A stretch of DNA of 58,697 nt. Source: Xanthobacteraceae bacterium (GTDB lineage: Bacteria > Pseudomonadota > Alphaproteobacteria > Rhizobiales > Xanthobacteraceae). Shown here one piece after another: positions 15,229 through 33,783 of this stretch; position 1 is the stretch's first letter, and the number at the start of each line of letters is the position of its first letter. The notes under the pieces were generated by a model that had not been told where the DNA came from, did not search any database, and saw nothing but the letters and a program-made list of their open reading frames with translations. Location of the stretch: positions 1 through 58,697 of the forward strand of contig JBOHIG010000073.1 in the NCBI GenBank assembly GCA_050725815.1, written 5' to 3'. Position numbers and translations under genes: made by a program.

Positions 15229-15846
15229 CTAAGTCCCGCTCTTTGCCGGCGGCGGCACCGGAGCGATCTTCGCCGCCGTGTGCATGTGGCCGTCCCACCG
15301 CTTCTCGAACGGCGCCGGAATGCCGAATTGATCGAGCACACGGCCGACCGTATGGTTGACCAGGTCGTCGATCGACTGCGGATGGTTGTAGAAGGCCGGC
15401 ATCGGCGGCAGCATGGTCACGCCCATGCGCGCGAGCTTGAGCATGTTTTCGAGATGCACCTCGGAGAGCGGCGTCTCGCGCACGACCAGGACGAGCTTGC
15501 GGCGCTCCTTGAGCACCACGTCGGCGGCGCGATGCACCAGATGGTCACCGACGCCCTGTGCGATACCGCCGAGCGTGCGCACCGAGCATGGGATCACCAC
15601 CATACCCTCGGTGAGGAAGGAGCCCGAGGACAGCGTCGCGCCCATGTCGCCCGATGAGTGCACGACGCTGGCCAGCGCCCTCACCTGCTCGAGCGAATAA
15701 TTGGTCTCGTGCTCGATGGTGCGTTGCGCCCATTTGCTGATCACGAGGTGCGACTCCACATCGCCGGCGCGCTTGAGCGCCTCCAGGAAGCGGACGCCGA
15801 AGATGGCGCCGGTCGATCCGGTCATGCCGATGATGAGGCGTCGCAT
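15229..15846 (-). CDS. ubiX: Flavin prenyltransferase UbiX (prFMN synthase)
   Basis: 'MRRLIIGMTGSTGAIFGVRFLEALK...VISKWA...IPCSVRTLGGIAQG'. ATG at 15846; track ORF starts at TTG 15852. Confidence 0.9.
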   Translation of the reverse strand: MRRLIIGMTGSTGAIFGVRFLEALKRAGDVESHLVISKWAQRTIEHETNYSLEQVRALASVVHSSGDMGATLSSGSFLTEGMVVIPCSVRTLGGIAQGVGDHLVHRAADVVLKERRKLVLVVRETPLSEVHLENMLKLARMGVTMLPPMPAFYNHPQSIDDLVNHTVGRVLDQFGIPAPFEKRWDGHMHTAAKIAPVPPPAKSGT

Positions 15847-15954
15847 TCTCAATCTCTCTTACTGTCGCCGCCGAGGGCCGCCTGTCCAACACCAGCCAGC
15901 TTTATCACACTACCAATCGTCACGGGAATCTAGCACGGCATCCGTTAACGCATT

Positions 15955-17472
15955 TCAATTCTCGAACAGGTGCCCGAATTTGCGGATCGCCAGCGCCTTG
16001 TCCTCCAGGGACGGCGCGTTGACCTCGGGGAACTTGTCGCGCCAGTGAAATGGCCGGCACGCATCGATCACGGCGCGGCTGTTGGTGTAGTCGCCGACCG
16101 CGCGGCGCTCGGGTTCGATGCGCGGGTCGAGAGGCGTCGACCAAGCGCCGCGGATGATCTCGATCGAGGTGGCAGGGTCCGAGCGCGTGAGCAGCGCCCA
16201 TAGCACCTCATTGATGTTGGACACGTCGATGTCGTCGTCGACCACGATGGTGTAGCGGCCGCAATAGGCGCCGACATGGCACATCGAGGCGATGTGGCCG
16301 GCCTGCTTGGCATGGCCGGGATAACGCTGGTTGACCGCGACCGCGAGCAGCAACCGCGCATTGCCGACTTCGTGCGCCCAGGCCGCGGTCACCGCCGGCA
16401 CGCCGGCCTTGGTGACGTTCTCGCGCAAGAGCGCCGAGCGCACGATGGCGCGATAGCGGCAGATTTCGTCCGGCGGCCGCTCGGGCACGCAGCCGAGCAG
16501 GATCGGCTCGTTGCGGTGATAGATCGCCTTGATGTCGAGCACCGGCTCTTCCGCCGCGCCGGTGGCGTAGTAGCCGGTCCACTCACCGAACGGGCCCTCG
16601 GTGCGAGTCTTGTCCGGCTCGATGAAGCCTTCGATCACGATCTCGGCGTTAGCAGGAATCGGCAGCCCGGTGACCGGGCCCTTGATCACCTCGACCGCCG
16701 AACCGCGCATGCCGCCGATGACCTCATACTCGCTCACGCCGTAGGGCACCTCGCTGCATCCCATCAGGAAGCTCATGGGATCGCCGCCCAGCACCACTGC
16801 AATCGGCATCGGCTGCTTGCGCGCCTTGTACTTGTCGCGCATCTGCCGGCCCTGCTTGCCCGGCGAGATGTAGAGGCCGCAGGACGTCGCGTCGTGGATC
16901 ATCACCCGGTAGGTGCCGCAATTGATCCAGCCTTCGTCGGGATCGCGGATGATGGTGTAGCAGCCGGTGCCGATGTAGCGACCGCCGTCCTTCGCGTGCC
17001 ATTGCGGCGCCGGGAATTTGGTAATGTCGATCGCATTGCCGGTGATGACGTTCTGCATCACCGGGCCGCTGTCGACGAATTTCGGCGCGATGCGCTTCAG
17101 GTCGGCGACGTAATGAACACGGAAGCCCTCGCTCAATTCGACCTTCGACATGTCGGTCGGGAAGCCGAGGGTCATGTTCTTGCGGCGGCCGTCGAAGAAG
17201 TTGAGCAGCACGCGGCTGCCGGGAAGCGTGCCGGGCACGTCCTCAAATACGAAGCACGGCGCATTGTCGGTGTGGTAGGCCATCTCGGACACCATGCCGA
17301 TGTCCTTCTGCCAGTTGAGACCCTGGACGTGCCTCACCTCGCCGAGCTTCTCGGCCTCCTCGAGCCACTTGCGCAGATCGTGATAGGCGAGATGCGGCGC
17401 AGTGTTGGAACCGATGCCGGCGGGCGCGCCCGCGCCGTTGGCGCTACCGCCGCTTCCAAGCTGTGTCGCCAT
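15955..17472 (-). CDS. UbiD-family prFMN-dependent (de)carboxylase, paralogue A
   Basis: 'EGPFGEWTGYY' acid-motif region and UbiD-like N-terminus 'YHDLRKWLEEAEKLGEVRHV'. Start uncertain (ATG 17472 or 17538; track ORF runs to 17628). Confidence 0.85.
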   Translation of the reverse strand: MATQLGSGGSANGAGAPAGIGSNTAPHLAYHDLRKWLEEAEKLGEVRHVQGLNWQKDIGMVSEMAYHTDNAPCFVFEDVPGTLPGSRVLLNFFDGRRKNMTLGFPTDMSKVELSEGFRVHYVADLKRIAPKFVDSGPVMQNVITGNAIDITKFPAPQWHAKDGGRYIGTGCYTIIRDPDEGWINCGTYRVMIHDATSCGLYISPGKQGRQMRDKYKARKQPMPIAVVLGGDPMSFLMGCSEVPYGVSEYEVIGGMRGSAVEVIKGPVTGLPIPANAEIVIEGFIEPDKTRTEGPFGEWTGYYATGAAEEPVLDIKAIYHRNEPILLGCVPERPPDEICRYRAIVRSALLRENVTKAGVPAVTAAWAHEVGNARLLLAVAVNQRYPGHAKQAGHIASMCHVGAYCGRYTIVVDDDIDVSNINEVLWALLTRSDPATSIEIIRGAWSTPLDPRIEPERRAVGDYTNSRAVIDACRPFHWRDKFPEVNAPSLEDKALAIRKFGHLFEN

Positions 17473-17707
17473 GCCATCCGGCCGACCGTCGTCCTGCTTC
17501 GCCACGCGGCCCTCCAAGACCTTGAGATGACGAGTCATTCGAGAGGCCCGGAGGCCTCGCGGACCCGCATTATACACGGGCGCTGCGCCGGGGAAGTGAA
17601 ACTTCGCCGCGGAGCAGCTTGCCATCAACGAGGCGCGCGCGTCATGTCGGTTGGCAGCGCCCGTGGAATGCTTATAATGCTAAGTAATTCCCTTCGGCAG
17701 CCCCTCC

Positions 17708-19255
17708 ATGCAAAACGACGCAGGCCCGAGACTGTTGCGCGACTGGATCGAACGCGCCGCTGCGCGCGATCCGGCAAAGCCCTGGATCGTCTGCGCCGAC
17801 GGCGGCCGCACCGTCAGCTACGGACAGTTGAAAGACCTCACCGGCCGCATCGCTACCGTCCTGCGCCGTCGCGGCCTCGACCGCAACGCCCGAGTGGCGC
17901 TGCTCGCCAACAACTCGATCGAGCACCTCCTCTGCTATTTCGGTGTCATGGCGTATGGCGCGACTATCTGCACCGTCCATGTGGAGATGAACCGCAACCA
18001 GCTCGACAACATCTTCGCCCGGCTCAAGCCTACACTGGTGCTGCATCAGGACGGGTTGCAGCTCGACGACCTCCTTGCGACTGTGTCCGCGCCGAAGTTG
18101 CAGCTCGGGCACTGGGACGAGCCCGCTGACGAAACGTTCTTCGTCGAGGTCGGGCGTGCGGAGCCAAGCGGCGCGCAGACCGACGCCGGCGGAGATGACG
18201 ACGCGGTGATCCTGTTCACTTCGGGCACCAGCGCGCGGCCCAAGGGCGTGGTGCTGAATTATCGCGAGCACCTCTCCAACATCGATCCCACCGCCGAGGG
18301 CTTCTGCATCACGGCGAACGACCGGCTTTACGACTTCCGCTCGTTCAACTGGGCGTCGGCACAGCTTCTCGGCGCGCTGGTGCCGATCAACCGCGGCGCG
18401 ACGCTGGTCATGGCCGAGAAATTTTCCGCCAGCCGCTTCTTTCAGCACGTGCGCGAGCGCCGCGTCACGGTCGCCGCCGGCAATCCGACCACCGTCAATA
18501 TCCTGCTCAACGGCGAGCAGGACGCGCACCACGACACGCTCCCGTCGCTGCGCTTCCTCACCTCCAGCTCGGCGCCCCTCACGGTCGAGGAGTGGCGACG
18601 CTTCGAAAGCAAGTTCGGAATTCCGATCGCGCAAGGCTACGGTTCGAGCGAAACCGGCTGGATCGCTGCCGTCTCCGGCGAGACGCGACGACTCGGCACC
18701 GTCGGGCAGCCACTGCCCTATCACGCGCTGGCGATCGTCGATGCCGACGGCCAACGGCTCCCGGCGGGCGAAAACGGCCAGGTCGAGATCGGCGGCTTTC
18801 CCGACCATTGCTACCGCTACCTCGCCGACGACGGCAGCGTCACGATCGCCTGTCGCGACCGCATCCGCACTGGCGATCTTGGCTCGCTGGATGACGCCGG
18901 ATTCCTGAGCCTCGCCGGACGCGAAAAGGAGCTGATCATCCGCGGCGGGGTCAATATCTCGCCGGTCGAGATCGACAGCTTCCTGATGCGTCGCCCAGAG
19001 CTGATCGAAGTGGCGACCGTTGGCGTGCCCGATGCGGTCTATGGCGAGGAGGTCGTGAGCTATGTGGTGGCGCGGCCGGGCGCGACGGTCGATGAGACGA
19101 CGCTGTTGCGCTATTGCAGCGACGGCCTTCCCACCTTCAAGGCGCCGAAGCGGATCGTGATGAGCGCCTCATTGCCTAAAACCGAGCGCGGCAAGCTCGA
19201 CCGCCGCGCGTTGGCAGAGCGGTGGAGCCGGGAACAAACTCCTGATCGAATGTAG
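17708..19255 (+). CDS. ANL-superfamily acyl-CoA ligase / AMP-dependent synthetase
   Basis: 'FTSGTSARPKGV', 'GYGSSETG', 'RTGDLG', 'PKTERGKLDRR' adenylation-core motifs. Confidence 0.9.
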   Translation: MQNDAGPRLLRDWIERAAARDPAKPWIVCADGGRTVSYGQLKDLTGRIATVLRRRGLDRNARVALLANNSIEHLLCYFGVMAYGATICTVHVEMNRNQLDNIFARLKPTLVLHQDGLQLDDLLATVSAPKLQLGHWDEPADETFFVEVGRAEPSGAQTDAGGDDDAVILFTSGTSARPKGVVLNYREHLSNIDPTAEGFCITANDRLYDFRSFNWASAQLLGALVPINRGATLVMAEKFSASRFFQHVRERRVTVAAGNPTTVNILLNGEQDAHHDTLPSLRFLTSSSAPLTVEEWRRFESKFGIPIAQGYGSSETGWIAAVSGETRRLGTVGQPLPYHALAIVDADGQRLPAGENGQVEIGGFPDHCYRYLADDGSVTIACRDRIRTGDLGSLDDAGFLSLAGREKELIIRGGVNISPVEIDSFLMRRPELIEVATVGVPDAVYGEEVVSYVVARPGATVDETTLLRYCSDGLPTFKAPKRIVMSASLPKTERGKLDRRALAERWSREQTPDRM

Positions 19256-19270
19256 ACGGCGCGCGCGACG

Positions 19271-19305
19271 CTTGCTCCGTTACCCTCTCCCCCCGCGGGA
19301 GAGGG
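19271..19305. repeat. REP-like unit with hairpin ccctctccc/gggagaggg
   Basis: The 22-mer 'cttgctccgttaccctctcccc' is identical to 54146-54167. Confidence 0.8.
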
Positions 19306-19347
19306 AAGTGCACAAGTGGCTTCGCAGCAAATCAACGCAGCGCTGTA

Positions 19348-20961
19348 CTACCGCCCCGTCCGCGCCAGCGAGTGCACCCAGCCCTGCATGCGCGACTTGG
19401 CGTTCTCGATGTCCTTCTTCGTGAAGAACTTCTCCGGCTTCACCTTGTCGATCGGATAGACCGGCCGCAGGAAGTCGCTCTCATAGCCGAACGGCACGGT
19501 GGTATCGATGCCCATGCCGCCCTCGAACTGGGTGTTGGATGCGGTCCACTGCTTGTCGCCCGCGGTCATGCGCTCGGCCGGCATGAAGGTCTGTCCGCGC
19601 CCGCCCGGGATCGGGTTCAGGATGTCGGTGCGCGGGTTCACCCGCGTCGTCAGGCACCACATGATGTCGTCCATGGAATAGGGATCGACATCCTCCGACA
19701 CGGCGATCGCGAGCCGCATGCCCTGCGAGCAGGACAGCGCGGCGGCGAGGAAGTTGCGCTGCCAGCCCTCGTCGATCTGGTGGCGCTTCTTCACCTGGAT
19801 GACACAGCCGCCCCAGTCGGTCATGCAATAGGGGATCACCACGTTCTGCACGATGCCGGGCTGCAGCCGCTCGCACAGCTCATAGATCGTCGCCTCGCGG
19901 ATTGTGGTGTCGATATTGTGGTCGTCGAGCGTATGGACGCCGAGCGCGAAGATGATCGGCTTGGTGGCCGGCTTGCGCATCGTTACCGCTGTGACGTGGA
20001 AGGTCGGCGCCTTGTAGGCCTTGCCCATATAGCCTGCCCATTCCGGATGGAAGTGGAAGCGGCCCTGCACGCCGGCGTCCTCCGATTCCCGGGTCTCGAA
20101 GCGGCGGTCGCGCGGATTGACGTAGCCTTCGAGCACAAGTTCCGCGTCCGCGAGCGCCATGGCGTTGACGGTGCGCGCCTTGACCAGCCGTACCGGAGAA
20201 CCCTGCACCGCGCCGGCGATACCGATCTCGTCGCAACCCATCGGCATGACGGCGTAGCCGAAGCCCGCGCCCGCGAGCAGCGTGCAGGCCGGCGGCACGC
20301 CGAAGCACATGGTGATCGGCACCGGCTCCTTCGCCTGGTAGTATTTGTTGACCACCTGCCACATGTGCGAGCCGGGCGAGATCTGGAACGTGCCGACATT
20401 GCCCCAGCGGAAGTTCATCCGGTTGTAGCCGAGGTCGGAACCGCCATCGAACTGGTCGCCGGTGACGCATCGGATGCCGGAGCCCACCGTCAGCTCGGGC
20501 TCGTAGGTGGTGTGGCGGATCGGAACGAGGTACTTGTTGACATCCTTCGGCTTGAGCACGACGTGCTCCTGGCACGGCGCCTCGTCCTGCGAAATCTCCT
20601 CAGGCTTGAGCGGCCGGCGCAGCGCCTGCGCGAGCTTGCGCACGCGCTCGGCATCGCTCGACCAGCCGAACATCTTGTTGATGACGGCCATGTCGCCGAA
20701 CAGGTTGGTGAGCACGCGATGGTTGGGCTTGCCCTTGACCTTGTTGAACAGCACCGGACAACCGCCATCCATGTGCTTCTGCAAACCGGTGACCTCGAGG
20801 TCCGGATTGACCTCCTTGCTGGTCTCGATCAGGTCGCCCTGCGACTTCAACCAAGCAAGCGTCGAGCGCAGGTCGCGCGCGCGATTGGCGGGTCTTGAAC
20901 CTTTGCTCGCCTTCTTCGCCTTGGCCGCGAGCTGCTTGTCCTTGCGGATATGCCGTTGCAT
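19348..20961 (-). CDS. UbiD-family (de)carboxylase, divergent paralogue B
   Basis: 537 aa with overall UbiD-like layout. It has 'FHFHPEWAGYMG' where paralogue A has 'EGPFGEWTGYY' (by-eye alignment) and a basic N-terminal tail 'KDKQLAAKAKKASKGSRPANRAR'. Confidence 0.75.
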   Translation of the reverse strand: MQRHIRKDKQLAAKAKKASKGSRPANRARDLRSTLAWLKSQGDLIETSKEVNPDLEVTGLQKHMDGGCPVLFNKVKGKPNHRVLTNLFGDMAVINKMFGWSSDAERVRKLAQALRRPLKPEEISQDEAPCQEHVVLKPKDVNKYLVPIRHTTYEPELTVGSGIRCVTGDQFDGGSDLGYNRMNFRWGNVGTFQISPGSHMWQVVNKYYQAKEPVPITMCFGVPPACTLLAGAGFGYAVMPMGCDEIGIAGAVQGSPVRLVKARTVNAMALADAELVLEGYVNPRDRRFETRESEDAGVQGRFHFHPEWAGYMGKAYKAPTFHVTAVTMRKPATKPIIFALGVHTLDDHNIDTTIREATIYELCERLQPGIVQNVVIPYCMTDWGGCVIQVKKRHQIDEGWQRNFLAAALSCSQGMRLAIAVSEDVDPYSMDDIMWCLTTRVNPRTDILNPIPGGRGQTFMPAERMTAGDKQWTASNTQFEGGMGIDTTVPFGYESDFLRPVYPIDKVKPEKFFTKKDIENAKSRMQGWVHSLARTGR

Positions 20962-20984
20962 GGTGGTGACGCTCGTGTTGCGAT

Positions 20985-21002
20985 TACATAGATTTCTAAG
21001 TA
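20985..21002. promoter_or_regulatory. Candidate MarR operator: imperfect palindrome TACaTAGAttTCTAaGTA in the divergent UbiD-B/marR promoter region
   Basis: Read directly. It sits in an 87-nt AT-rich spacer between divergent starts 20961 and 21049. Confidence 0.4.
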
Positions 21003-21048
21003 TTATTATGCGACAAACGCCGAAACGCTGTCAATCGCGGTATTTTTC

Positions 21049-21540
21049 ATGCAACGAGAGAGCGCCGCAGGCCACGCCGACGCGCCTATCCGCCCCGACG
21101 GCGACGATCTTCCGCATCATCAGAGCGATGGCTATCTCGTGCGCGATGCCCATCGCGCGTACCAGCGCCTCCTGGAGAAGCGCATCGCGCCGCACGGCGT
21201 GACGCGCGGGCAATGGTACTTCCTGCGCGTGCTCTGGACCAAGGACGGGCTTTCGCAACGCGAGCTTTCGACACGCGTCGGCATGATGGAGCCGACCACC
21301 GTGATCGCGCTGCGCAGCATGGAGAAGGCCGGACTGGTCCGCCGCATACGCAGCAAGGATGACCGCCGCCGGACCCATGTGTGGCTGACCTCCAAGGCCA
21401 AGCGCATGCGCAGCCGCCTGCTCGCCATCGCGCGCGGGATCAACGATGCCTCCGAGCAGGGCATCGACCGGCGCGACATCGAGGCGCTGCGGCGCGTGCT
21501 CCCGCGCATGACCGCAAACCTCGACCGGATCAAGCGCTAA
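21049..21540 (+). CDS. MarR-family transcriptional regulator
   Basis: 'GVTRGQWYFLRVLWTKDGLSQRELSTRVGMMEPTTVIALRSMEKAGLVRRIRSKDDRRRTHVWLT' is a winged-HTH MarR signature. Confidence 0.9.
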   Translation: MQRESAAGHADAPIRPDGDDLPHHQSDGYLVRDAHRAYQRLLEKRIAPHGVTRGQWYFLRVLWTKDGLSQRELSTRVGMMEPTTVIALRSMEKAGLVRRIRSKDDRRRTHVWLTSKAKRMRSRLLAIARGINDASEQGIDRRDIEALRRVLPRMTANLDRIKR

Positions 21541-21549
21541 GGAGTCTCC

Positions 21550-21963
21550 ATGAAACCCAGCCTCCGGCCTGGTATCGCTTTCAGCAAGCGCATCACCGTC
21601 GACCTCGACCGCACCATCAGCTTCATGGGCGAGGATGCGCGGGTCTATGCCACGCCGCGGCTGGTCAGCGACGTCGAGTACACCTGCCGCGACCTGATCC
21701 TCCAGCACGCCGACACCGGCGAGGACTCCGTCGGCATGGAGATCGCGCTCAAGCATCTCGCGCCGACGCTTGCCGGCAGCACCGTGGAGGTCGCCGTCCG
21801 CGTCATCGCGGTCGACGGCCGCAAGGTCACGTTGGAGGCATCCGTTCGCGACGAGATCGACACCGTGAGCACGGGAACCCACGCCCGCTTCGTGGTCGAT
21901 GTCGCCAAGACCAAGGAGCGGCTGAAGGCCAAAGCCACGAAGCTCGCCGCCCACAAGGGATGA
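21550..21963 (+). CDS. Hotdog-fold thioesterase (FlK-like acyl-CoA thioesterase family)
   Basis: 137 aa. AGGAG overlaps the marR stop, 6 nt before the ATG. The family call is by-eye similarity to small hotdog thioesterases. Confidence 0.6.
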   Translation: MKPSLRPGIAFSKRITVDLDRTISFMGEDARVYATPRLVSDVEYTCRDLILQHADTGEDSVGMEIALKHLAPTLAGSTVEVAVRVIAVDGRKVTLEASVRDEIDTVSTGTHARFVVDVAKTKERLKAKATKLAAHKG

Positions 21964-22042
21964 CGAGGCCGGCTCCACACGCCGTCAACGCTGTTCCCCT
22001 CCCCGCGTTGTCATCGCGCGGCAACCGCCCTATACGAGCGGC

Positions 22043-22645
22043 ATGGCCGAGGAACAGCTCATCGTCGTCGACGAGCGCAACCGCGCCGTCGGCTTTGGCG
22101 GCAAGACCCCGGTGCACCGCGCCGGGCTCCTTCACCGTGCCTTCTCCATCTTCCTGGTGGACGACAAAGGTCGCATCCTGCTGCAACGGCGCAGCCGCCG
22201 GAAATATCACTCCGGCGGCTTGTGGGCCAACTCCTGCTGCGGCCATCCGCGCCCGGGCGAGCAGACCTTGCCTGCGGCGCGCCGCCGTCTGCGTGAGGAA
22301 CTTGGCGCCGAAGGACCGCTGTCGTTCGGATTCTTCAGCCGCTACCGCGCCGAGCTCGACGGCGGCATGCAGGAGAACGAGTTCGTCTACGTGTATTTCG
22401 GCCCACTGTCGTCGTCGCTCGCGCCCGATCCCACCGAGGTGTCTGACGTCGAGTTCGTCAGCGTCGACGATCTGAGGCGCCGCGTCGCACGGGAGCCTGA
22501 TGCGTTTGCGTATTGGCTCAAGCACTATTTACGCAATCATCTCCCCGACATTGCGCAACTGTCTAAGCGCGCGGCGCGCAAGGCGCTGCCGGCCGCCGAC
22601 GCCGACCGCTACGAACGCAGCAAGACCGTAGCCGCACGGCGATGA
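22043..22645 (+). CDS. idi: Isopentenyl-diphosphate delta-isomerase, type 1 (Nudix)
   Basis: 'LHRAFSIFLVDDKGRILLQRRSRRKYHSGGLWANSCCGHP...ENEFVYVY'. Confidence 0.9.
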   Translation: MAEEQLIVVDERNRAVGFGGKTPVHRAGLLHRAFSIFLVDDKGRILLQRRSRRKYHSGGLWANSCCGHPRPGEQTLPAARRRLREELGAEGPLSFGFFSRYRAELDGGMQENEFVYVYFGPLSSSLAPDPTEVSDVEFVSVDDLRRRVAREPDAFAYWLKHYLRNHLPDIAQLSKRAARKALPAADADRYERSKTVAARR

Positions 22646-22688: not shown

Positions 22689-23696
22689 TTACTTCCGCTT
22701 GATGAACCCGTTGAGCTTGACCAGCGTCGACTTCGGCACCTTGGCGACGTCGGTCAATATCTTCTGCACCTCATCGCCATAGACCGGGTCGACCTCACGC
22801 CGCGACTTCTTCATCTCCGCAAGGTAGTCGCGGTCCTTCATGGTCGCTGCAAATCCTGCGCGCAAAATCTTGACCAGTTCGGGGGGCAAGCCGGGTGGCG
22901 CCACCACCGGGCGCCCCACCGTGCCGACCGCCGTCATGACGGTCCACATCGCCTTGTACTCTGGATCCTTCACGAACTCCGTGACCATCGGCACGTTCGG
23001 CAAATCGGCATGCTTCGCCCGGCCGACCTGCACGATGACGTTGACCAGCTTGTCGCGCAGCCAATGCAGCTTACCAGCCTTCAGCGATCCCCACGAGCCG
23101 GCCACGCCTTCGACCTCGCCGCGCTCCATGGCGAGCATGACATCGGTGTTCGACTTGTAGCCGCTGGAGACCTTGAACTTCGTCCCGATGGTGTTGTTCA
23201 TCAGCGAAGTATGGGTCTCGCTGTCGTTGGGGCCGCTGCCGCCCATCACCGCGCCGATCGTCATCGCGTCGTTGATGGTCTTCACCCTGGACGCATGCCA
23301 CATGGTGACGACGCTGGTCTCGTCATTGAAGCTGCCGAGCCAATTGAAATCGGCCGGCACGAACTTCGCGCGCTTCTCGCCGAAGAACGGATGGAACGGC
23401 ACGCCGCGCTGGATCACGCCAAAGACAAGCCCGTCCTTGGGCGCCACGTTGAAAAGCCAGTTGGTCGCGACCGTCCCGCCGGCTCCGGGCATGTTCTGCA
23501 CCACGATCGTGGGCTCGCCGGGGATGTGCTTCTTCAGGTATTGGGCGAAGGTACGCGCATAGGCGTCGTAACCGCCGCCTGGCGCGGAGGAGACCACCAG
23601 CCGGATGGTCTTGCCGGCATAGAAGTCGGCCGCCATCGCGGCGCCGGCGATGCCAGTGGCTGCAAGGGTGGTGAGAACCGCGATCAGTTTCCGCAT
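22689..23696 (-). CDS. Bug/TctC-family periplasmic solute-binding protein (orphan)
   Basis: The real start is the internal ATG at 23696 ('MRKLIAVLTTLAATGIAGAAMAADFYAGKTIRLVVSSAPGGGYD...VVQNMPGAGG'). The track ORF extends to 24362 through antisense of the MFS gene. Confidence 0.85.
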   Translation of the reverse strand: MRKLIAVLTTLAATGIAGAAMAADFYAGKTIRLVVSSAPGGGYDAYARTFAQYLKKHIPGEPTIVVQNMPGAGGTVATNWLFNVAPKDGLVFGVIQRGVPFHPFFGEKRAKFVPADFNWLGSFNDETSVVTMWHASRVKTINDAMTIGAVMGGSGPNDSETHTSLMNNTIGTKFKVSSGYKSNTDVMLAMERGEVEGVAGSWGSLKAGKLHWLRDKLVNVIVQVGRAKHADLPNVPMVTEFVKDPEYKAMWTVMTAVGTVGRPVVAPPGLPPELVKILRAGFAATMKDRDYLAEMKKSRREVDPVYGDEVQKILTDVAKVPKSTLVKLNGFIKRK

Positions 23697-23858
23697 GTCA
23701 GCCTCCAGAAGTCCGACACCGAGTTGACAACAGCCCGTGACGGTACGAAACGAGTTGTTTCGGCACAAGACCGTCGATCCCGCGGGGCGCCAGCCGCAAC
23801 GTCGCAGGATAGGACGCGCCGCGCAGGAGTGGCGACAGCACGATGACGCGGCCGGACG

Positions 23859-27669: not shown

Positions 27670-28614
27670 ATGCAACTGCGCGATCTCGGACAATCCGGCC
27701 TGCGCGTTTCGGCCGTCGGTCTCGGTTGCAACAATTTCGGCCGCAATGTCGACCGCGAGACCGCGCGGGCGGTGATCCACAAGGCGCTCGACCTCGGCGT
27801 CACCTTCCTTGACACCGGCGATGTCTACGGCCGGCGCGGCGGCTCGGAGACAATCATCGGCGAAGTCTTGGGGCCGCGGCGCAGGGACGTCTTCATCGCC
27901 ACCAAGTTCGGGCGGCCGATGGATGCGGAGGGCAAGCTGCAAGGCAGCTCGCGCCGCTACATCATGCAGGCGGTGGAGGCGAGCCTCAAACGGCTCAAGA
28001 CCGATTGGATCGACCTCTATCAGTCACACAAGCCCGATCCGTCGACGCCGATCGAGGAGACGCTGCGCGCGCTCGATGATCTCAAACGCGCCGGCAAGAT
28101 CCGCTTCGCCGGGTGCAGCCACATGCCGGCGACGGAGGTGCGCGACGCCGCGCGCGCGGCAGGCACGCACGCCCTTCCCGGGTTCTGTTGCGCCGAGGAC
28201 GAATACAGCCTGTTGTTTCGCGGCATCGAGCGCGACCTCTTGCCCGCGATGGCGGCGAGCGGCATGAGCCTCCTGCCCTACTATCCGCTCGCGAGCGGGC
28301 TGCTCACCGGCAAATACAAGCGCGGCGAGCCGCTGCCGGAGGGGTCTCGCTTCAAGGTCGTCACCGAGCGCGACTACACGGGCCACTTCTTCACCGACGC
28401 GAACTGGAACAAGCTCGACGCGCTCAATGCCTTTGCGCAGCAGCGCGGGCTGACGTTGCTCGACCTCGCGATGAGCTGGGTTGCAGCGAAGCCCGCGGTC
28501 GCGAGCGTGATTGCCGGCGCGACCAAGCCCGAGCAGGTCGAGGCCAACGTGAAGGCCGCGGAGGCGAACTTGTCGGTCGCGGATATCGCAGAGCTCGACG
28601 CAATCACGGCATGA
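27670..28614 (+). CDS. Aldo/keto reductase
   Basis: 'MQLRDLGQSGLRVSAVGLGCNNFG...FLDTGDVYG...IDLYQSHKPD'. ATG 27670 lies inside track ORF 27640..28614. Confidence 0.9.
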   Translation: MQLRDLGQSGLRVSAVGLGCNNFGRNVDRETARAVIHKALDLGVTFLDTGDVYGRRGGSETIIGEVLGPRRRDVFIATKFGRPMDAEGKLQGSSRRYIMQAVEASLKRLKTDWIDLYQSHKPDPSTPIEETLRALDDLKRAGKIRFAGCSHMPATEVRDAARAAGTHALPGFCCAEDEYSLLFRGIERDLLPAMAASGMSLLPYYPLASGLLTGKYKRGEPLPEGSRFKVVTERDYTGHFFTDANWNKLDALNAFAQQRGLTLLDLAMSWVAAKPAVASVIAGATKPEQVEANVKAAEANLSVADIAELDAITA

Positions 28615-28636
28615 GCGGCGTGCGGCCACCAGGGCG

Positions 28637-28822
28637 CTACGACTTTTCCCGCTCGCGCTTGGGAGATTGGGCGGGCACGAGCGGCGCTTCGACCTCCTGC
28701 GCGCGCTTGCGCCAATACCGCTCCATCTCTCCCCAGACTTCGCGCGCGCGATCGTTCGCCGCCGTCGCAGCGTGCAAAGCGCATTCGTCTGCGCGTTCCC
28801 GGTAATCGAACGTCTTGGCCAT
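28637..28822 (-). CDS. Small hypothetical protein (61 aa)
   Basis: ATG-initiated ORF with non-shadow composition ('MAKTFDYRERADECALHAATAAND...'); no family recognised. Confidence 0.4.
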   Translation of the reverse strand: MAKTFDYRERADECALHAATAANDRAREVWGEMERYWRKRAQEVEAPLVPAQSPKREREKS

Positions 28823-28994
28823 TCGGGGCCCCCGGGGCGCATTGTGAGCCGGCCGGGTTAACGATCTTTGACTCGGCAGCGCCCATACCGCCGCGGGGGG
28901 GCATCGAGCAGCACGGTAGGATTGTGTCTCAAATCACGTCCAGAACGAGAAATCCGTTAACCGGCGTCACAATTCGCGGCGGCACGAGCCGAAT

Positions 28995-29249
28995 TCAGTT
29001 GTCCAGGCGCTTGCTGATGAGCCGGTATTTCGCATCGAACTTCAGGTCGTATTTGCGTCCATCGCACACCGCATCGTCGACTTCGAAATGGCGGTCCTCG
29101 TCGTCCCATTCCATCTTGCCCCCGGAACACCTCTGAGCCGATATCGCCGCCATCAGCTTGGCCCGCTCCGCCTCGGTTGTCGGTCGATCCGCTTTCGCGG
29201 GAAATGCCATTACAACGAGGAGTGCGGTCATTGCGAAGAGCATTCGCAT
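28995..29249 (-). CDS. Small secreted PepSY-like protein
   Basis: Signal peptide 'MRMLFAMTALLVVMAFPAKA'. 'CSGGKMEWDDEDRHFEVDDAVCDGRKYDLKFDAKYRLIS' resembles small PepSY-like periplasmic proteins (by eye). Confidence 0.5.
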   Translation of the reverse strand: MRMLFAMTALLVVMAFPAKADRPTTEAERAKLMAAISAQRCSGGKMEWDDEDRHFEVDDAVCDGRKYDLKFDAKYRLISKRLDN

Positions 29250-29516
29250 GGTGTGCTCCTTTGCCGATTGCCCGCCCGCTACCGGCAAATTCCTTCTGTC
29301 ATCGAATGTTCCCGTCCACGCCGCGGCAAAATATGCGGTTCTGTGTGCGCAGACCCGCTCCGATCACCGCGCACGGCAGGCGACAACGGTGGGATGAGCC
29401 CCACCGCATTGCGTCGTCCCGTCCAGATCGAGAACTCGGGCTCCTACCCAACTCCTTCGCTTGTATCGCAGCCGATGAAATTGGGGAACGACGAGCTCCG
29501 CACGATCAATCATGGA

Positions 29517-30308
29517 CTAAGGATGAAAATAATAGGCGATCCCAACTCGGCCGGTGTGCGCCGCTGCATCAAAACGCCCTGTCGCGACAGCAGTGCTAGT
29601 TTGTGGGATGACGCCCTGCGCGGTTCGCCTAAAAGTTCCTCCAACATCACCATCCATGAAGCTGCTATATCGATATTCGGCTCGCATAGTCCAATGGCCT
29701 GCGATTTTTCTTTCAATTCCAGCACCAACAATCGGGCCGTGAAGCCCGAAATTGGGAAGCACATCGCTGGCCGAAATCTCGAAGCGAGCGTATGTCCATC
29801 CAGCCAAAATGTAGGCAAGCGTATCATTTGAGACGAGGTAACCAGCGCGGACGAAGGCTGCGGCAGACCATCGATGTGGAATGGTGAAAAGGGTGTCTTG
29901 TGTCGTCAACTCGGGAGGAATAGGCGCCCGTTGAACCGTGAGTATTCTCTCAACACCGCGCATGTTTATCGAATTGCCGGCAAAGCCTCCTTCGACTTGA
30001 GCGCCTACGATAACTCGCGTGCCGAATTGCTGGTTATATCCGACATAGAGATCACTGACATATCCCGTATCCCGCCCACTCGCGATTGCATTGACCGTCT
30101 GCGTGAACGTCCCGAAGGGAGATGTGTTAACGTTTTGCCTATTTCCAATTGAATCCAGGCTGATAAACGACGCGCCAGCTGACGCGCCAACGTAGAAGCC
30201 GGACCATCCAGCGATCGGATAACGCGGCGCTGTGTCGGCGGCTGTGCCGAGATTTGGAAAGATTGAGATCCAGAAGCCAACAAGAAGTACCCCTCGAAGG
30301 TGCAGCAT
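29517..30308 (-). CDS. Outer-membrane beta-barrel protein (Omp25/OmpA-like barrel family)
   Basis: Signal peptide, 'GWSGFYVGASAG...', alternating beta-strand pattern and a C-terminal aromatic '...RVGIAYYFHP'. Lies in a lower-GC patch (sampled lines about 47-62%). Confidence 0.7.
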   Translation of the reverse strand: MLHLRGVLLVGFWISIFPNLGTAADTAPRYPIAGWSGFYVGASAGASFISLDSIGNRQNVNTSPFGTFTQTVNAIASGRDTGYVSDLYVGYNQQFGTRVIVGAQVEGGFAGNSINMRGVERILTVQRAPIPPELTTQDTLFTIPHRWSAAAFVRAGYLVSNDTLAYILAGWTYARFEISASDVLPNFGLHGPIVGAGIERKIAGHWTMRAEYRYSSFMDGDVGGTFRRTAQGVIPQTSTAVATGRFDAAAHTGRVGIAYYFHP

Positions 30309-30582
30309 GATGAACTCCCAAATTTGAGGACGTGCCACTCAGACGGCACACAACCAGAACTTGAAGGCAATATCGTACCGTCGCAAGGCCTATCTTCCGG
30401 TTGATCGCGAACCGCGCAATCGAGATCGGAGGCCGATACAGCAAACGAAGCGGTCGATGAGGGACGCCGAGAGCGGTTCGCAAGAGACCTCGCGAATCGC
30501 TACCGAAAAAGCCGAGCTTCGACCCTGTGCGTGAAACGAAGAGAGTCTAGCGGCGCCGCGGACAACTCGCAGCGTCGCAACC

Positions 30583-30706: not shown

Positions 30707-30737
30707 GCGGAGTATCAGGAGCGGAGTGTCGTGCCGC

Positions 30738-30932: not shown

Positions 30933-30934
30933 AC

Positions 30935-31180: not shown

Positions 31181-31197
31181 GCTGAGCCTCTGCGGTC

Positions 31198-31273
<76 letters not shown>

Positions 31274-33760: not shown

Positions 33761-33783
33761 TCGGTCACACGTTCGGTGAACGA

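What the first reader, a model, noticed from the sequence alone, without database searches (positions are those of the whole stretch)
15229..22645. MarR-associated prFMN locus: two divergent UbiD paralogues bracketing an acyl-CoA ligase, plus UbiX, a hotdog thioesterase and Idi
Seen: seven co-localised genes organised around two divergent promoter regions. They are ubiX (15229-15846,-) and UbiD-A (15955-17472,-), diverging from an ANL acyl-CoA ligase (17708-19255,+). The ligase converges on UbiD-B (19348-20961,-), which diverges from marR (21049-21540,+). A hotdog thioesterase (21550-21963, SD overlapping the marR stop) and idi (22043-22645) follow marR. UbiD-A keeps a Fdc1/UbiD-type 'EGPFGEWTGYY' acid motif. 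UbiD-B has 'FHFHPEWAGYMG' at the by-eye equivalent position (first Glu absent) and a basic N-terminal tail, so the two are not recent duplicates. Established: UbiX makes prFMN for UbiD (de)carboxylases. Phthaloyl-CoA decarboxylase is a UbiD enzyme that acts on a CoA thioester supplied by a CoA transferase or ligase. Phenylphosphate carboxylase uses two different UbiD-like subunits. Inference: a ligase and thioesterase embedded between two non-identical UbiD paralogues suggests a CoA-dependent, possibly heteromeric, (de)carboxylation module. Its substrate would be an unknown (hetero)aromatic or unsaturated acid, under MarR control. I cannot match it to a characterised pathway from memory.
Basis: partly seen in the sequence, partly recalled or inferred. 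Interest (0 to 1): 0.8.

Follow-up and report, generated by a model that had tools for sequence, protein, structure and literature searches.

The report
Ligase-type phthaloyl-CoA decarboxylase gene cluster
This is a soil alphaproteobacterial version of the known pathway that removes a carboxyl group from the plasticiser breakdown product phthalate via a CoA thioester, in which an ATP-dependent ligase has replaced the usual CoA transferase and a second decarboxylase of unknown substrate rides along.

Summary
All seven genes exist at the stated coordinates with the stated families. The locus does match a characterised pathway. UbiD-B (19348-20961) aligns without gaps over 510 residues, 74% identical, to crystallised phthaloyl-CoA decarboxylase (Pcd) of Thauera chlorobenzoica, including the FHFHPEWAGYMG motif.

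In 60 related loci with at least 7 kb on both sides of Pcd, the slot beside Pcd holds either this ANL ligase (47 loci) or a pair of family III CoA transferases (10), never both. That pair is 61-62% identical to the two annotated CoA transferases next to Pcd in the Aromatoleum aromaticum EbN1 phthalate island. The two types interleave on the Pcd tree. The ligase is therefore most likely the phthalate-activating enzyme.

Two conserved 18-mers overlap strong promoters of pcd/marR and of the ligase. They are probable MarR operators.

UbiD-A is a canonical UbiD, 41% identical to phenazine-1-carboxylate decarboxylase. It is absent from most Pcd loci, but the EbN1 island has a 64% relative. It is an accessory enzyme of unknown substrate; the evidence argues against a Pcd subunit role, though this was not tested directly.

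UbiX, idi and an FlK-type thioesterase co-occur tightly.

Verdict: a new variant of a known pathway, widespread and unannotated in soil bacteria. Moderate interest.

The parts
15229..15852 (-). ubiX, flavin prenyltransferase that makes prFMN for the UbiD enzymes. The alternative ATG start is at 15846.
   Evidence: PF02441 and NF004685 (260 bits, cutoff 188). 67% identical to both UbiX copies of the EbN1 phthalate island. Lies 102 bp downstream of UbiD-A on the same strand.
15955..17472 (-). UbiD-A, a canonical UbiD-family decarboxylase of unknown substrate. It is an accessory gene, not part of the core.
   Evidence: UbiD plus UbiD_C domains. Best solved relative is PhdA (7pda), E 2e-103, 40.7% identity, with EGPFGEWTGY conserved. 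64% identical to the second UbiD (WP_011255029.1) of the EbN1 island. Present in 23 of 60 Pcd loci.
17651..17686 (+). Ligase promoter (TTGGCA-N16-TATAAT, 17651-17678) with a conserved 18-mer, TGCTTATAATGCTAAGTA (17669-17686), overlapping the -10 box. Probable repressor operator.
   Evidence: Promoter scan gives 11 of 12 matches. The 18-mer is unique in the window, with 0.01 expected by chance. The same element lies 25-49 nt (mostly 34-42) upstream of 41 of 53 ligase orthologues and at -106 in one more; 51 hits in total (both strands) in the 1.56 Mb searched, which includes this window.
17708..19255 (+). ANL-superfamily acyl-CoA ligase, the proposed ATP-dependent phthalate-CoA ligase.
   Evidence: PF00501 plus PF13193. 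No NCBIfam equivalog cutoff is reached. Best solved relatives are the dicarboxylate activators oxalyl-CoA and malonyl-CoA synthetase. Mutually exclusive with the CoA-transferase pair (47/10/0/3). Three independent metagenome contigs also place it next to Pcd.
19348..20961 (-). UbiD-B, a phthaloyl-CoA decarboxylase (Pcd) orthologue with a 27-residue basic N-terminal extension.
   Evidence: 916 bits, E 4e-275, 73.7% identity over 510 ungapped residues to T. chlorobenzoica Pcd (8pmk/8oz5), with an identical FHFHPEWAGYMGKAYKAPTFHV stretch. 74% identical to the EbN1 Pcd copies.
20978..21034 (.). 87-bp divergent control region. It holds the pcd promoter (TTGACA-N18-CATAAT on the minus strand, 21034-21005), the marR promoter (TTGCGA-N17-TATTAT on the plus strand, 20978-21006), and a conserved pseudo-palindromic 18-mer, TACTTAG-AAAT-CTATGTA (20985-21002, minus strand).
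   Evidence: Promoter scan. The 18-mer is exact and unique in the window, with 0 expected by chance. With up to 4 mismatches it is found just upstream of Pcd in 62 of 80 related loci, once per locus.
21049..21540 (+). marR-family regulator, probable repressor of pcd, of itself and of the ligase.
   Evidence: PF01047 and PF12802. The divergent MarR-Pcd pairing is found in 47 of 60 loci.
21550..21963 (+). FlK-type hotdog acyl-CoA thioesterase, translationally linked to marR.
   Evidence: PF22636, 103 bits. The FlK catalytic residues Thr42/Glu50/His76 and Arg120 are conserved in the alignment to 3kv7; the Phe36 gate is replaced by Asp. Co-occurs with ubiX and idi in 23 of 25 loci.
22043..22645 (+). 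idi, type 1 isopentenyl-diphosphate isomerase. Proposed supplier of the dimethylallyl donor for prFMN synthesis.
   Evidence: NF002995 (158.6 bits, cutoff 127) and TIGR02150 (109.5 bits, cutoff 105.8). An idi (46% identical) also flanks the EbN1 IclR-UbiX-Pcd unit. idi and ubiX occur together in 23 loci, apart in 3.
22689..23700 (-). TctC/Bug-family periplasmic solute-binding protein (start approximate). Candidate uptake component; only weakly linked to the cluster.
   Evidence: PF03401, E 8.5e-11, in the C-terminal 265 residues of the open frame. TctC genes flank Pcd in close relatives (family f28). TctCAB follows Pcd plus the CoA transferases in MAGs labelled Deltaproteobacteria and Binatia.

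Best explanation
The locus encodes a ligase-dependent version of the phthaloyl-CoA route for o-phthalate.

Proposed steps:
1. The ANL ligase (17708-19255) uses ATP and CoA to make the labile phthaloyl-CoA (inferred).
2. UbiD-B, a phthaloyl-CoA decarboxylase orthologue loaded with prFMN, converts it to benzoyl-CoA plus CO2. The orthology is shown; the activity is inferred.
3. UbiX makes the prFMN, and Idi raises the dimethylallyl donor supply for the large amount of cofactor needed (inferred).
4. The FlK-type thioesterase most likely hydrolyses benzoyl-CoA or mis-formed acyl-CoAs. It would act as a CoA-pool safety valve, or yield free benzoate for oxygenase pathways (inferred; the weakest step).
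5. MarR represses pcd and marR from an operator that overlaps both promoters in the 87-bp intergenic region. It probably also represses the ligase from a related operator over its -10 box. An aromatic acid or its CoA ester would relieve repression (inferred from conserved DNA elements).

UbiD-A is a separate, canonical UbiD decarboxylase served by the same UbiX. It would act on a further, unidentified aromatic acid. It is an optional passenger of phthalate loci in several proteobacterial classes and is probably not a subunit of Pcd.
For: - UbiD-B matches crystallised Pcd at 916 bits, 73.7% identity over 510 ungapped residues. The next-best UbiD enzyme scores only 168 bits.
- The experimentally studied Aromatoleum aromaticum EbN1 phthalate island (review PMC13040137) carries orthologues of Pcd (74%), UbiX (67%), idi (46%) and UbiD-A (64%).
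- In 60 species-level loci with at least 7 kb on each side of Pcd, the ligase is present in 47 and the family III CoA-transferase pair in 10. Both are present in 0 and neither in 3. The transferase pair always starts within about 200 bp after Pcd. The ligase does so in about half of its loci and lies up to 6 kb away in the rest.
- That transferase pair is 61-62% identical to the two annotated CoA transferases that follow Pcd in the EbN1 island. These are presumably the succinyl-CoA:phthalate CoA transferase.
- Ligase-type and transferase-type loci are interleaved on the Pcd tree, so the swap happened repeatedly in place.
- Three independent metagenome contigs found through the ligase all carry a UbiD next to it (a full Pcd-type domain set in two, a fragment in the third). 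Between them they also carry MarR (2 of 3), an FlK thioesterase (2 of 3), a NUDIX protein (1 of 3) and UbiX (2 of 3).
- The ligase's closest solved relatives activate dicarboxylates: oxalyl-CoA and malonyl-CoA synthetases.
- ATP-dependent phthalate-CoA ligase plus Pcd is an established alternative in Desulfosarcina cetonica (PMC13040137).
- The conserved operators and promoters are described.
- The thioesterase keeps the FlK catalytic residues.
- Divergence of the cluster proteins among close relatives (Pcd 90%, UbiD-A 90-92%, ligase 76-79%) is similar to that of the flanking housekeeping genes MipZ (84%) and RraA (77%). In several species the cluster sits at the same RraA/MipZ site. This argues for vertical inheritance.
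Against: - There is no biochemical evidence for any protein of this locus.
- The ligase reaches no curated equivalog model. Its relation to the D. cetonica phthalate-CoA ligase could not be tested.
- No benzoyl-CoA or benzoate catabolic genes (box, bad/bcr, ben) lie in the 58.7-kb window, so the fate of the product is unknown.
- From my own knowledge, not checked here: characterised Pcd is oxygen-sensitive, whereas these hosts are mostly soil bacteria.
- The clade is very widespread (at least 1017 protein clusters and 591 genome stretches) and apparently vertically inherited. That sits uneasily with a purely xenobiotic substrate and leaves room for a natural analogue.
- The ligase shares its divergent promoter region with UbiD-A in about 17 loci, so it could serve UbiD-A as well.
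- The thioesterase also travels with a PaaK-like ligase in 17 of 25 loci, so its substrate may belong to another pathway.
Confidence: 0.68

Rival explanations
1. The Pcd orthologue and ligase act on a natural ortho-dicarboxylate analogue rather than on o-phthalate itself. Candidates are substituted phthalates from PAH or humic breakdown, or pyridine-2,3-dicarboxylate. Phthalate use in betaproteobacteria would then be a recent recruitment of this older soil pathway.
For: - The Pcd clade is very large and spans several phyla: 1017 clusters at E<=1e-150, with MAGs labelled Binatia, Vicinamibacteria and Burkholderiales, and 591 stretches in species-representative genomes.
- It sits at a conserved chromosomal site, with divergence similar to that of the neighbouring housekeeping genes.
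- Neighbouring genes vary widely among aromatic-acid functions: VanA-type Rieske oxygenase, DpgC-like dioxygenase, intradiol dioxygenase, further UbiD paralogues.
Against: - 74% ungapped identity to enzymes shown to act on phthaloyl-CoA, and 61-62% identity of the alternative activating enzyme to the EbN1 CoA-transferase pair. The review says the EbN1 and Azoarcus succinyl-CoA:phthalate transferases are specific for o-phthalate.
- o-Phthalate also arises naturally from PAH degradation (PMC6362003 abstract), so wide distribution does not require another substrate.
Confidence: 0.15
2. Two independent modules lie side by side. The ligase and UbiD-A would form a ligase/decarboxylase pair for another aromatic dicarboxylate, for example isophthalate or terephthalate via its CoA ester, by analogy with the Syntrophorhabdus isophthalate system. 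Pcd would get phthaloyl-CoA from an enzyme encoded elsewhere.
For: - The ligase and UbiD-A share a 235-bp divergent promoter region here and are adjacent and divergent in about 17 related loci.
- Isophthalate is handled by a ligase plus a UbiD-like decarboxylase in Syntrophorhabdus aromaticivorans (PMC9516798).
Against: - 27 of 47 ligase-bearing loci have no UbiD-A within reach, whereas every one has Pcd by construction of the set, and the three independently found ligase contigs also carry it.
- The ligase is strictly exclusive with the CoA-transferase pair.
- UbiD-A also occurs in 3 transferase-type loci without the ligase.
- UbiD-A has the canonical free-acid-type motif, and its nearest characterised relative, PhdA, acts on a free acid.
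- The Syntrophorhabdus ligase is PaaK-type, not this ANL type.
Confidence: 0.08
3. One reading: UbiD-A and UbiD-B form a heteromeric, CoA-dependent (de)carboxylase for an unknown substrate, as in phenylphosphate carboxylase.
For: Two dissimilar UbiD paralogues plus one UbiX lie in a single 7.4-kb locus. The pair recurs in 23 of 60 loci and in the EbN1 island.
Against: - Pcd occurs without UbiD-A in 37 of 60 loci and in the contigs checked from other bacterial groups.
- The solved Pcd entries hold a single sequence in 6 or 12 copies.
- UbiD-A scores 297 bits against the phenylphosphate carboxylase beta model (cutoff 469) and 170 against alpha (cutoff 565).
- UbiD-A-family members at 67-71% identity sit in unrelated contexts without Pcd.
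Confidence: 0.04

Closest known systems
Anaerobic/hybrid o-phthalate clusters of denitrifying Betaproteobacteria (Aromatoleum aromaticum EbN1 plasmid 2, Thauera chlorobenzoica, Azoarcus sp. PA01): succinyl-CoA:phthalate CoA transferase, Pcd (PhtDa) and UbiX (PhtDb)
   Same: Orthologous Pcd (74%) and UbiX (67%). The EbN1 island also carries an idi (46%) and a second UbiD that is 64% identical to UbiD-A. The chemical logic is the same: activate phthalate to phthaloyl-CoA, then decarboxylate it to benzoyl-CoA.
   Different: - This window has no family III CoA transferase; an ANL ligase sits in that role.
- The regulator is MarR rather than IclR.
- A FlK-type thioesterase is added.
- The locus is chromosomal and apparently vertically inherited in soil Xanthobacteraceae-type genomes, not plasmid- or transposon-borne.
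- TctC/MFS genes flank it instead of TAXI-TRAP or ABC transporters.
Desulfosarcina cetonica phthalate CoA ligase (PCL) plus Pcd
   Same: ATP-dependent ligase activation of phthalate followed by a UbiD-type Pcd and UbiX (review PMC13040137).
   Different: The host there is a strictly anaerobic deltaproteobacterium. Whether the two ligases are orthologous, or independent recruitments within the adenylate-forming superfamily, could not be tested because no D. cetonica sequence was available.
Syntrophorhabdus aromaticivorans isophthalate:CoA ligase plus isophthalyl-CoA decarboxylase
   Same: A ligase plus a UbiD-like decarboxylase acting on a benzenedicarboxyl-CoA (PMC9516798).
   Different: That ligase is PaaK-type. 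The window's ligase has the PF00501/PF13193 architecture and is closest to oxalyl- and malonyl-CoA synthetases. A PaaK-like gene is present in some related loci (family f9) but not in this window.
PhdA/PhdB phenazine-1-carboxylate decarboxylase of Mycobacterium fortuitum (PDB 7pda)
   Same: Closest solved relative of UbiD-A: E 2e-103, 41% identity, shared EGPFGEWTGY motif, and pairing with a UbiX gene.
   Different: 41% identity is too low to transfer the substrate. There are no phenazine-related genes nearby. UbiD-A's relatives occur in many different aromatic-acid contexts.
Phenylphosphate carboxylase (heteromeric UbiD-like alpha/beta subunits)
   Same: Two different UbiD-family proteins are encoded in one locus.
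   Different: Both paralogues score below the curated cutoffs of TIGR02723 and TIGR02724. The co-occurrence pattern speaks against an obligate pair.

Membership tests
Phthaloyl-CoA decarboxylase (Pcd/PhtDa) clade of the UbiD family | Full-length, high-identity alignment to a biochemically and structurally characterised Pcd, far above any other UbiD enzyme | tested here: met
   916 bits and 73.7% identity over 510 ungapped residues to 8pmk/8oz5. The next enzyme, AroY, scores 168 bits. 74% identical to the EbN1 Pcd copies.
Phthaloyl-CoA decarboxylase (Pcd/PhtDa) clade of the UbiD family | Pcd-type acid-motif region (FHFHPEWAGYMG) in place of the canonical E-x4-E loop | tested here: met
   The stretch rfhfhpewagymgkaykaptfhvta is identical in the query and in 8pmk in the printed alignment.
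Phthaloyl-CoA decarboxylase (Pcd/PhtDa) clade of the UbiD family | A UbiX-type flavin prenyltransferase encoded in the same cluster | tested here: met
   ubiX at 15229-15852. UbiX lies within 10 kb of Pcd in 25 of 60 loci.
Phthaloyl-CoA decarboxylase (Pcd/PhtDa) clade of the UbiD family | Decarboxylation of phthaloyl-CoA to benzoyl-CoA | not testable with these tools
   Requires an enzyme assay.
Betaproteobacterial-type phthalate cluster (succinyl-CoA:phthalate CoA transferase plus Pcd plus UbiX) | Two family III CoA-transferase genes adjacent to Pcd | tested here: not met
   No PF02515 gene was found among the window ORFs scanned. The pair is present in 10 of 60 sister loci, and exactly in those that lack the ligase.
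ATP-dependent phthalate-CoA ligase (as in Desulfosarcina cetonica) | An adenylate-forming (ANL) ligase encoded next to Pcd | tested here: met
   PF00501 plus PF13193. The gene converges on Pcd with a 92-bp gap. The linkage holds in 47 of 60 loci and in 3 of 3 independent contigs.
ATP-dependent phthalate-CoA ligase (as in Desulfosarcina cetonica) | Sequence orthology to the characterised D. cetonica enzyme, and activity with o-phthalate | not tested
   The D. cetonica sequence and the primary paper (Geiger et al. 2019) were not available in the tools.
Canonical UbiD decarboxylases (Fdc1/UbiD/PhdA type), for UbiD-A | UbiD plus UbiD_C domains and the conserved E-G-P-F-G-E acid loop | tested here: met
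   PF01977 (229 bits) and PF20696 (94 bits). TIGR00148 scores 271.5, above its cutoff of 244.85. TEGPFGEWTGYY aligns with hEGPFGEWTGYF of PhdA.
Phenazine-1-carboxylate decarboxylase PhdA, for UbiD-A | Orthology-level similarity and a phenazine-related genomic context | tested here: inconclusive
   It is the best solved hit, but at only 40.7% identity. There is no phenazine context. Relatives of UbiD-A occur in diverse contexts.
Phenylphosphate carboxylase alpha/beta (heteromeric UbiD) | Score above the curated cutoffs of TIGR02723 and TIGR02724 | tested here: not met
   UbiD-A: 297 bits against a cutoff of 469 (beta) and 170 against 565 (alpha). UbiD-B: 62 and 48 bits.
Type 1 isopentenyl-diphosphate isomerase | Score above the equivalog cutoff, plus the catalytic Cys/Glu and metal ligands | tested here: met
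   NF002995 (158.6 bits, cutoff 127) and TIGR02150 (109.5 bits, cutoff 105.8). By eye against the E. coli Idi pattern as I recall it, NSCCGHP and ENEF are present in the translation.
FlK-type hotdog thioesterase | Pfam PF22636 above cutoff and the FlK catalytic Thr/Glu/His | tested here: met
   102.8 bits (cutoff 27). Thr, Glu, His and Arg120 align with those of 3kv7; the Phe36 gate is Asp. Substrate was not tested.
MarR-family repressor with a divergent operator | A MarR winged-helix domain, plus a conserved pseudo-palindrome overlapping the promoters of the divergent target gene | tested here: met
   PF01047 and PF12802. TACTTAG-N4-CTATGTA lies at 20985-21002 within both promoters and is conserved in 62 of 80 related loci. 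Binding itself was not tested.

The most novel reading that the evidence does not exclude
Soil Alphaproteobacteria run an old, vertically inherited and so far unannotated route in which a new, independently recruited ANL ligase replaces the CoA transferase. Together with Pcd and the FlK-type thioesterase, it would form an ATP-driven CoA cycle that turns free phthalate into free benzoate for ordinary aerobic catabolism. UbiD-A would be a new prFMN decarboxylase for another benzene- or pyridine-polycarboxylate that feeds the same funnel. In that case the phthaloyl-CoA route would be a major natural soil pathway rather than a recent response of anaerobes to plasticisers.
Probability: 0.25. Interest if true: 0.65.

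Novelty: new variant of a known kind. Interest (0 to 1): 0.45.

Why it matters
- Phthalate is the common intermediate of plasticiser and PAH breakdown. In the literature I could read, the CoA-dependent decarboxylation route is known from a few denitrifying and sulfate-reducing bacteria.
- This locus, and the hundreds of related ones found here, suggest that the route is common in soil Alphaproteobacteria and other soil phyla. In public databases these proteins carry wrong or generic names such as 'gallate decarboxylase subunit C' or '4-hydroxy-3-polyprenylbenzoate decarboxylase'.
- The repeated in-place swap between a CoA transferase and an ATP-dependent ligase is a clean natural experiment. 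It shows two ways to make what is described as an extremely unstable CoA thioester.
- The conserved promoter and operator pair gives a ready-made candidate biosensor for phthalate.
- UbiD-A, which recurs in phthalate loci of several proteobacterial classes, is a defined target for discovering a new prFMN decarboxylase substrate.

Tried and rejected
- **Primary literature.** Ebenau-Jehle 2017 and 2020, Boll 2020 and Geiger 2019 are not held. The Syntrophorhabdus ISME paper timed out twice. I therefore could not learn whether the second UbiD or the idi of the EbN1 island has been discussed, nor what kind of ligase the D. cetonica enzyme is.
- **Literature on Alphaproteobacteria.** A search for phthaloyl-CoA plus Bradyrhizobium found nothing. 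The two recent reviews I queried do not mention Alphaproteobacteria or a ligase in aerobes.
- **Names in the protein collection.** The names given to the ligase, UbiD-A and Pcd relatives are all generic, so they gave no functional lead.
- **Downstream pathway.** I looked for benzoyl-CoA or benzoate pathway genes across the window. None were found. The flanks are housekeeping genes: MipZ, RNase HII, cytochrome bd, LeuA, IlvBHC, MiaA.
- **EbN1 transporters.** The EbN1 ABC substrate-binding protein has no homologue in the related loci. The TAXI-TRAP permeases are only 28% identical, so I do not count the window's TRAP system as part of the locus.
- **marR-pcd inversion.** I looked for inverted repeats flanking the marR-pcd segment that could explain its two orientations among close relatives. 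Nothing convincing was found.
- **Inverted-repeat tool on the intergenic regions.** It missed the operators. They emerged only from cross-locus comparison.
- **Heteromer model and phenylphosphate-carboxylase membership.** Both were rejected on co-occurrence and HMM scores.
- **Structure prediction.** Not run.

Full report
**1.

A GC3 frame analysis selects them as the coding frames in this 65% G+C sequence. Pfam and NCBIfam assign the following:
- 15229-15852(-): UbiX.
- 15955-17472(-): a UbiD-family protein, UbiD-A.
- 17708-19255(+): an ANL acyl-CoA ligase.
- 19348-20961(-): a second UbiD-family protein, UbiD-B.
- 21049-21540(+): MarR.
- 21550-21963(+): a FlK-type hotdog thioesterase.
- 22043-22645(+): a type 1 isopentenyl-diphosphate isomerase, which scores above the equivalog cutoffs.

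The quoted motifs, the basic N-terminal tail of UbiD-B, and the Shine-Dalgarno sequence overlapping the marR stop codon are all there. The flanks are housekeeping genes: MipZ, RraA-like, RNase HII, cytochrome bd, LeuA, IlvBHC, MiaA. The locus is therefore chromosomal, in an alphaproteobacterium.

**2. UbiD-B is a phthaloyl-CoA decarboxylase orthologue**

Against all PDB sequences, UbiD-B hits phthaloyl-CoA decarboxylase (Pcd; 8pmk, 8oz5/8p02) at 916 bits, E 4e-275. The alignment is ungapped from residue 28 to the C-terminus, and I count 73.7% identity over 510 positions. The next enzyme, protocatechuate decarboxylase, scores 168 bits. It is the family's normal motif.

The reviews describe the pathway as follows (PMC13040137; PMC8269228). 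o-Phthalate is activated to the very unstable phthaloyl-CoA. In denitrifiers this is done by a succinyl-CoA-dependent family III CoA transferase, and in Desulfosarcina cetonica by an ATP-dependent ligase. A UbiD-type Pcd then decarboxylates phthaloyl-CoA to benzoyl-CoA, using prFMN made by a UbiX encoded in the same cluster.

**3. Comparison with a studied cluster**

A tblastn search of plasmids found only Aromatoleum aromaticum EbN1 plasmid 2. Its annotated island reads: idi, IclR, UbiX, Pcd, an ABC transporter, a second UbiD, a porin, a DMT transporter, UbiX, Pcd, two CoA transferases, and a TAXI-TRAP transporter.

By BLASTP, the EbN1 proteins match the window's proteins as follows: Pcd 74%, UbiX 67%, idi 46%. 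The second UbiD (WP_011255029.1) is 64% identical to UbiD-A over 477 residues. So Pcd, UbiX, a UbiD-A-type paralogue and idi already travel together in a betaproteobacterial phthalate island. What differs here is the activating enzyme, the regulator and the thioesterase.

**4. The ligase replaces the CoA transferase**

A scan of one genome per species with UbiD-B gave 591 matching stretches. The best 80 (82-92% identity) are nearly all soil MAGs labelled Xanthobacteraceae or Alphaproteobacteria. I mapped the window's proteins and de novo ORF families onto these loci.

Of the 60 loci with at least 7 kb on both sides of Pcd:
- 47 carry the ligase.
- 10 carry a pair of family III CoA transferases.
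- None carries both.
- 3 carry neither.

The transferase pair always starts within about 200 bp of the end of Pcd. The ligase does so in about half of its loci and lies up to 6 kb away in the rest. The transferase pair is 61% and 62% identical to the two EbN1 CoA transferases. On a neighbour-joining tree of the Pcd sequences, ligase-type and transferase-type loci are interleaved. For example, L029 (transferase) lies next to L034 (ligase), L015 next to L021, and L080 next to L079. The exchange therefore happened more than once among close relatives.

Three metagenome contigs reached through the ligase, not through Pcd, all have a UbiD gene beside it. Two of these carry the full Pcd-type domain set; the third is a fragment. 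MarR, the FlK thioesterase, a NUDIX protein and UbiX appear on some of these contigs. In Pcd contexts from MAGs labelled Deltaproteobacteria, Binatia and Burkholderiales, Pcd is followed by CoA transferases (two in the first two, one in the third, where a transposase follows). TctCAB follows in the first two. The ligase thus looks like an innovation of the Xanthobacteraceae-type lineage.

The ligase passes no curated equivalog model. Its best solved relatives are oxalyl-CoA and malonyl-CoA synthetases, which activate dicarboxylates. Its thousands of metagenomic relatives carry only generic names. I conclude that the ligase supplies Pcd with its substrate. The genomic evidence is strong, but the activity is inferred.

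**5. Regulation**

The 87-bp marR-pcd spacer holds three elements:
- A near-consensus pcd promoter, TTGACA-N18-CATAAT.
- A divergent marR promoter, TTGCGA-N17-TATTAT.
- Between and over them, the pseudo-palindrome TACTTAG-AAAT-CTATGTA at 20985-21002.

This 18-mer is unique in the window, with none expected by chance. With up to four mismatches it lies just upstream of Pcd in 62 of 80 related loci, once per roughly 20-kb locus.

A second conserved 18-mer, TGCTTATAATGCTAAGTA (17669-17686), overlaps the -10 box of a TTGGCA-N16-TATAAT promoter 39 nt before the ligase start. The same element is found 25-49 nt (mostly 34-42) upstream of 41 of 53 ligase orthologues and at -106 in one more. There are only 51 hits in total, counting both strands, in the 1.56 Mb searched, which includes this window. 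Both elements contain CTTAG/CTAAG half-sites.

The likely reading is that MarR represses pcd, itself and the ligase. Binding and the effector were not tested.

**6. UbiD-A**

UbiD-A has the canonical EGPFGEWTGY loop and passes the general UbiD subfamily model. Its nearest solved relative is PhdA, the phenazine-1-carboxylate decarboxylase of Mycobacterium fortuitum (7pda; PMC10850782), at 40.7% identity. It scores only 49 bits against Pcd.

Its distribution:
- It occurs in 23 of the 60 Pcd loci: 20 with the ligase and 3 with the transferase pair.
- It is usually divergent from the ligase and followed by UbiX.
- In some loci a VanA-type Rieske oxygenase sits in that position instead.
- Family members at 67-71% identity lie in unrelated contexts with hydantoinase-like, TctC and Rieske genes and no Pcd.

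On a rough tree, the Pcd-linked Xanthobacteraceae copies form one group. The EbN1, L055 and L079 copies, which are also Pcd-linked, form another.

Three points argue against UbiD-A being a Pcd subunit. The solved Pcd entries contain a single chain type. Pcd frequently occurs without UbiD-A. And UbiD-A fails the phenylphosphate carboxylase models. UbiD-A is best seen as an optional second decarboxylase, probably acting on a free aromatic acid related to the phthalate funnel. Its substrate is unknown.

**7. UbiX, idi and the thioesterase**

These three travel together. The thioesterase and idi co-occur in 23 loci and occur apart in 3. The same numbers hold for the thioesterase with ubiX, and for ubiX with idi. 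idi also flanks the EbN1 unit.

Pcd is reported to be made in very large amounts to capture its labile substrate (PMC13040137). Extra isomerase to supply the dimethylallyl donor for prFMN is therefore a reasonable but untested reading.

The thioesterase keeps the FlK catalytic Thr/Glu/His and Arg120 but not the Phe gate. In 17 of 25 loci a PaaK-like ligase lies beside it, often with a DpgC-like dioxygenase. Its substrate could therefore be benzoyl-CoA, or an arylacetyl-CoA from a neighbouring pathway. The benzoyl-CoA role would be a CoA safety valve, or release of benzoate; from my own knowledge, such thioesterases are known in the box and paa pathways. This is the least secure part of the model.

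**8. Distribution and age**

The protein collection holds at least 1017 clusters (at 90% identity) that match UbiD-B at E<=1e-150. Some clusters have hundreds to over a thousand members. The MAGs are labelled Alphaproteobacteria, Rhodospirillaceae, Burkholderiales, Binatia, Vicinamibacteria and Deltaproteobacteria. None is named phthaloyl-CoA decarboxylase; the names given include 'gallate decarboxylase subunit C' and '4-hydroxy-3-polyprenylbenzoate decarboxylase'.

Among the closest relatives, the cluster sits at the same RraA/MipZ site. Its proteins have diverged about as much as those neighbours: Pcd 90%, UbiD-A 90-92%, ligase 76-79%, MipZ 84%, RraA 77%. This points to vertical inheritance rather than recent transfer. 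It keeps open the possibility that the natural substrate pool is older or broader than industrial phthalate.

**9. Limits**
- No enzyme of this locus has been assayed.
- The relation of the ligase to the D. cetonica enzyme is untested.
- No gene for the further metabolism of benzoyl-CoA lies in the window.
- Several primary papers could not be read. I cannot exclude that the second UbiD or the idi of the EbN1 island, or alphaproteobacterial clusters, have been discussed elsewhere. The held literature gave no such report.

**10. Verdict**

What remains new:
- The ANL ligase as an in-place substitute for the CoA transferase.
- The MarR operator pair.
- The tight ubiX-idi-thioesterase association.
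- The recurrent but unexplained UbiD-A.
- The scale of the unannotated Pcd clade in soils.

I rate it a new variant of a known kind, of moderate interest.

Noticed in passing
protein collection, hits P0241-P0360 to window 19348-20961: At least 1017 protein clusters of the Pcd clade (E<=1e-150) exist in public data, some with more than 1000 members. They span MAGs labelled Alphaproteobacteria, Burkholderiales, Binatia, Vicinamibacteria and Deltaproteobacteria. None is named phthaloyl-CoA decarboxylase; they are called gallate decarboxylase subunit C, UbiD family decarboxylase or 4-hydroxy-3-polyprenylbenzoate decarboxylase.
   Followed up: partly
related loci such as L010, L018, L026, L029, L033, L039, between the thioesterase and marR: Many related loci insert a module of a PaaK-like ligase (624 bits against the PaaK model, just under the 646 cutoff), a DpgC-like cofactor-independent dioxygenase (425 bits, cutoff 530), a PurC-like protein, a PQQ-dehydrogenase-like protein (by eye) and a cytochrome c (by eye). 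This suggests a separate arylacetyl-CoA pathway beside the phthalate genes. It is absent from this window.
   Followed up: partly
L012, L027, L042, L044, L062, L065, L087, L089 (position divergent from the ligase): A VanA-type Rieske oxygenase, in L087 and L089 followed by a 66-aa ORF, sits next to the ligase where UbiD-A sits in this window (adjacent and divergent in L012, L027, L042, L062, L065, L087 and L089). The slot beside the ligase is therefore variable among aromatic-acid enzymes.
   Followed up: no
L027, L035, L044, L046, L056, L066 (about 9-10 kb downstream of Pcd): A third, distinct UbiD paralogue (about 480 aa, about 31% identical to UbiD-A) recurs near Pcd. It occurs together with DUF5996, a MetE-like protein (by eye), an ABC binding protein (by eye) and a 2Fe-2S subunit of the xanthine-dehydrogenase type (by eye).
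   Followed up: no
window 19348-21540 compared with L001, L002, L003, L005: The marR-pcd pair occurs in both orientations relative to the ligase among the closest relatives. It is inverted in L001-L003 and L005, and oriented as in the window in L004, L006 and L063. Compared with those relatives, the window also lacks the TctC gene (f28) next to marR-pcd and the TauD-family gene (f34) after idi. No flanking inverted repeats were found.
   Followed up: partly
window 19348-20961, residues 1-27 of UbiD-B: The Lys/Arg-rich N-terminal extension is absent from the crystallised Thauera enzyme. It is conserved at protein level in many Xanthobacteraceae-type Pcd genes, in both ligase-type and transferase-type loci. 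Its role is unknown.
   Followed up: partly
window 32672-35977: A TAXI-type TRAP transporter (NMT1_3 binding protein plus a fused DctM permease) lies about 10 kb from the cluster. It is the same transporter class as in the EbN1 phthalate island, but the permeases are only 28% identical, and no linkage was seen in related loci.
   Followed up: partly
window 28600-32600, tRNA at 31198-31273(-): This stretch has lower G+C (0.61-0.62). It holds a tRNA-Lys(CTT) (the only tRNA gene found by ARAGORN and the only Rfam match at gathering threshold in the window), an outer-membrane beta-barrel protein, an LTXXQ-motif protein, and ORFs without family matches.
   Followed up: no
window 47496-52371: Two tandem pairs, each made of an MBOAT-family membrane O-acyltransferase followed by a protein with no Pfam match (456+364 aa and 460+340 aa). 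This looks like a duplicated two-gene unit.
   Followed up: no
window 116-1669(-): A tyrosinase/polyphenol-oxidase-like protein (Tyrosinase, PPO1_DWL and DUF7868 domains) lies next to a xanthine/uracil-family permease.
   Followed up: no
L084 (JGI contig Ga0556625_000007), 9001-15203: Two UbiD-A-family paralogues lie 3 kb apart. Around them are hydantoinase A/B-like genes, several TctC genes, a VanA-type Rieske oxygenase, a SnoaL-like protein and a molybdopterin hydroxylase. This may be a heteroaromatic-acid catabolic island and could hint at the substrate class of the UbiD-A family.
   Followed up: no
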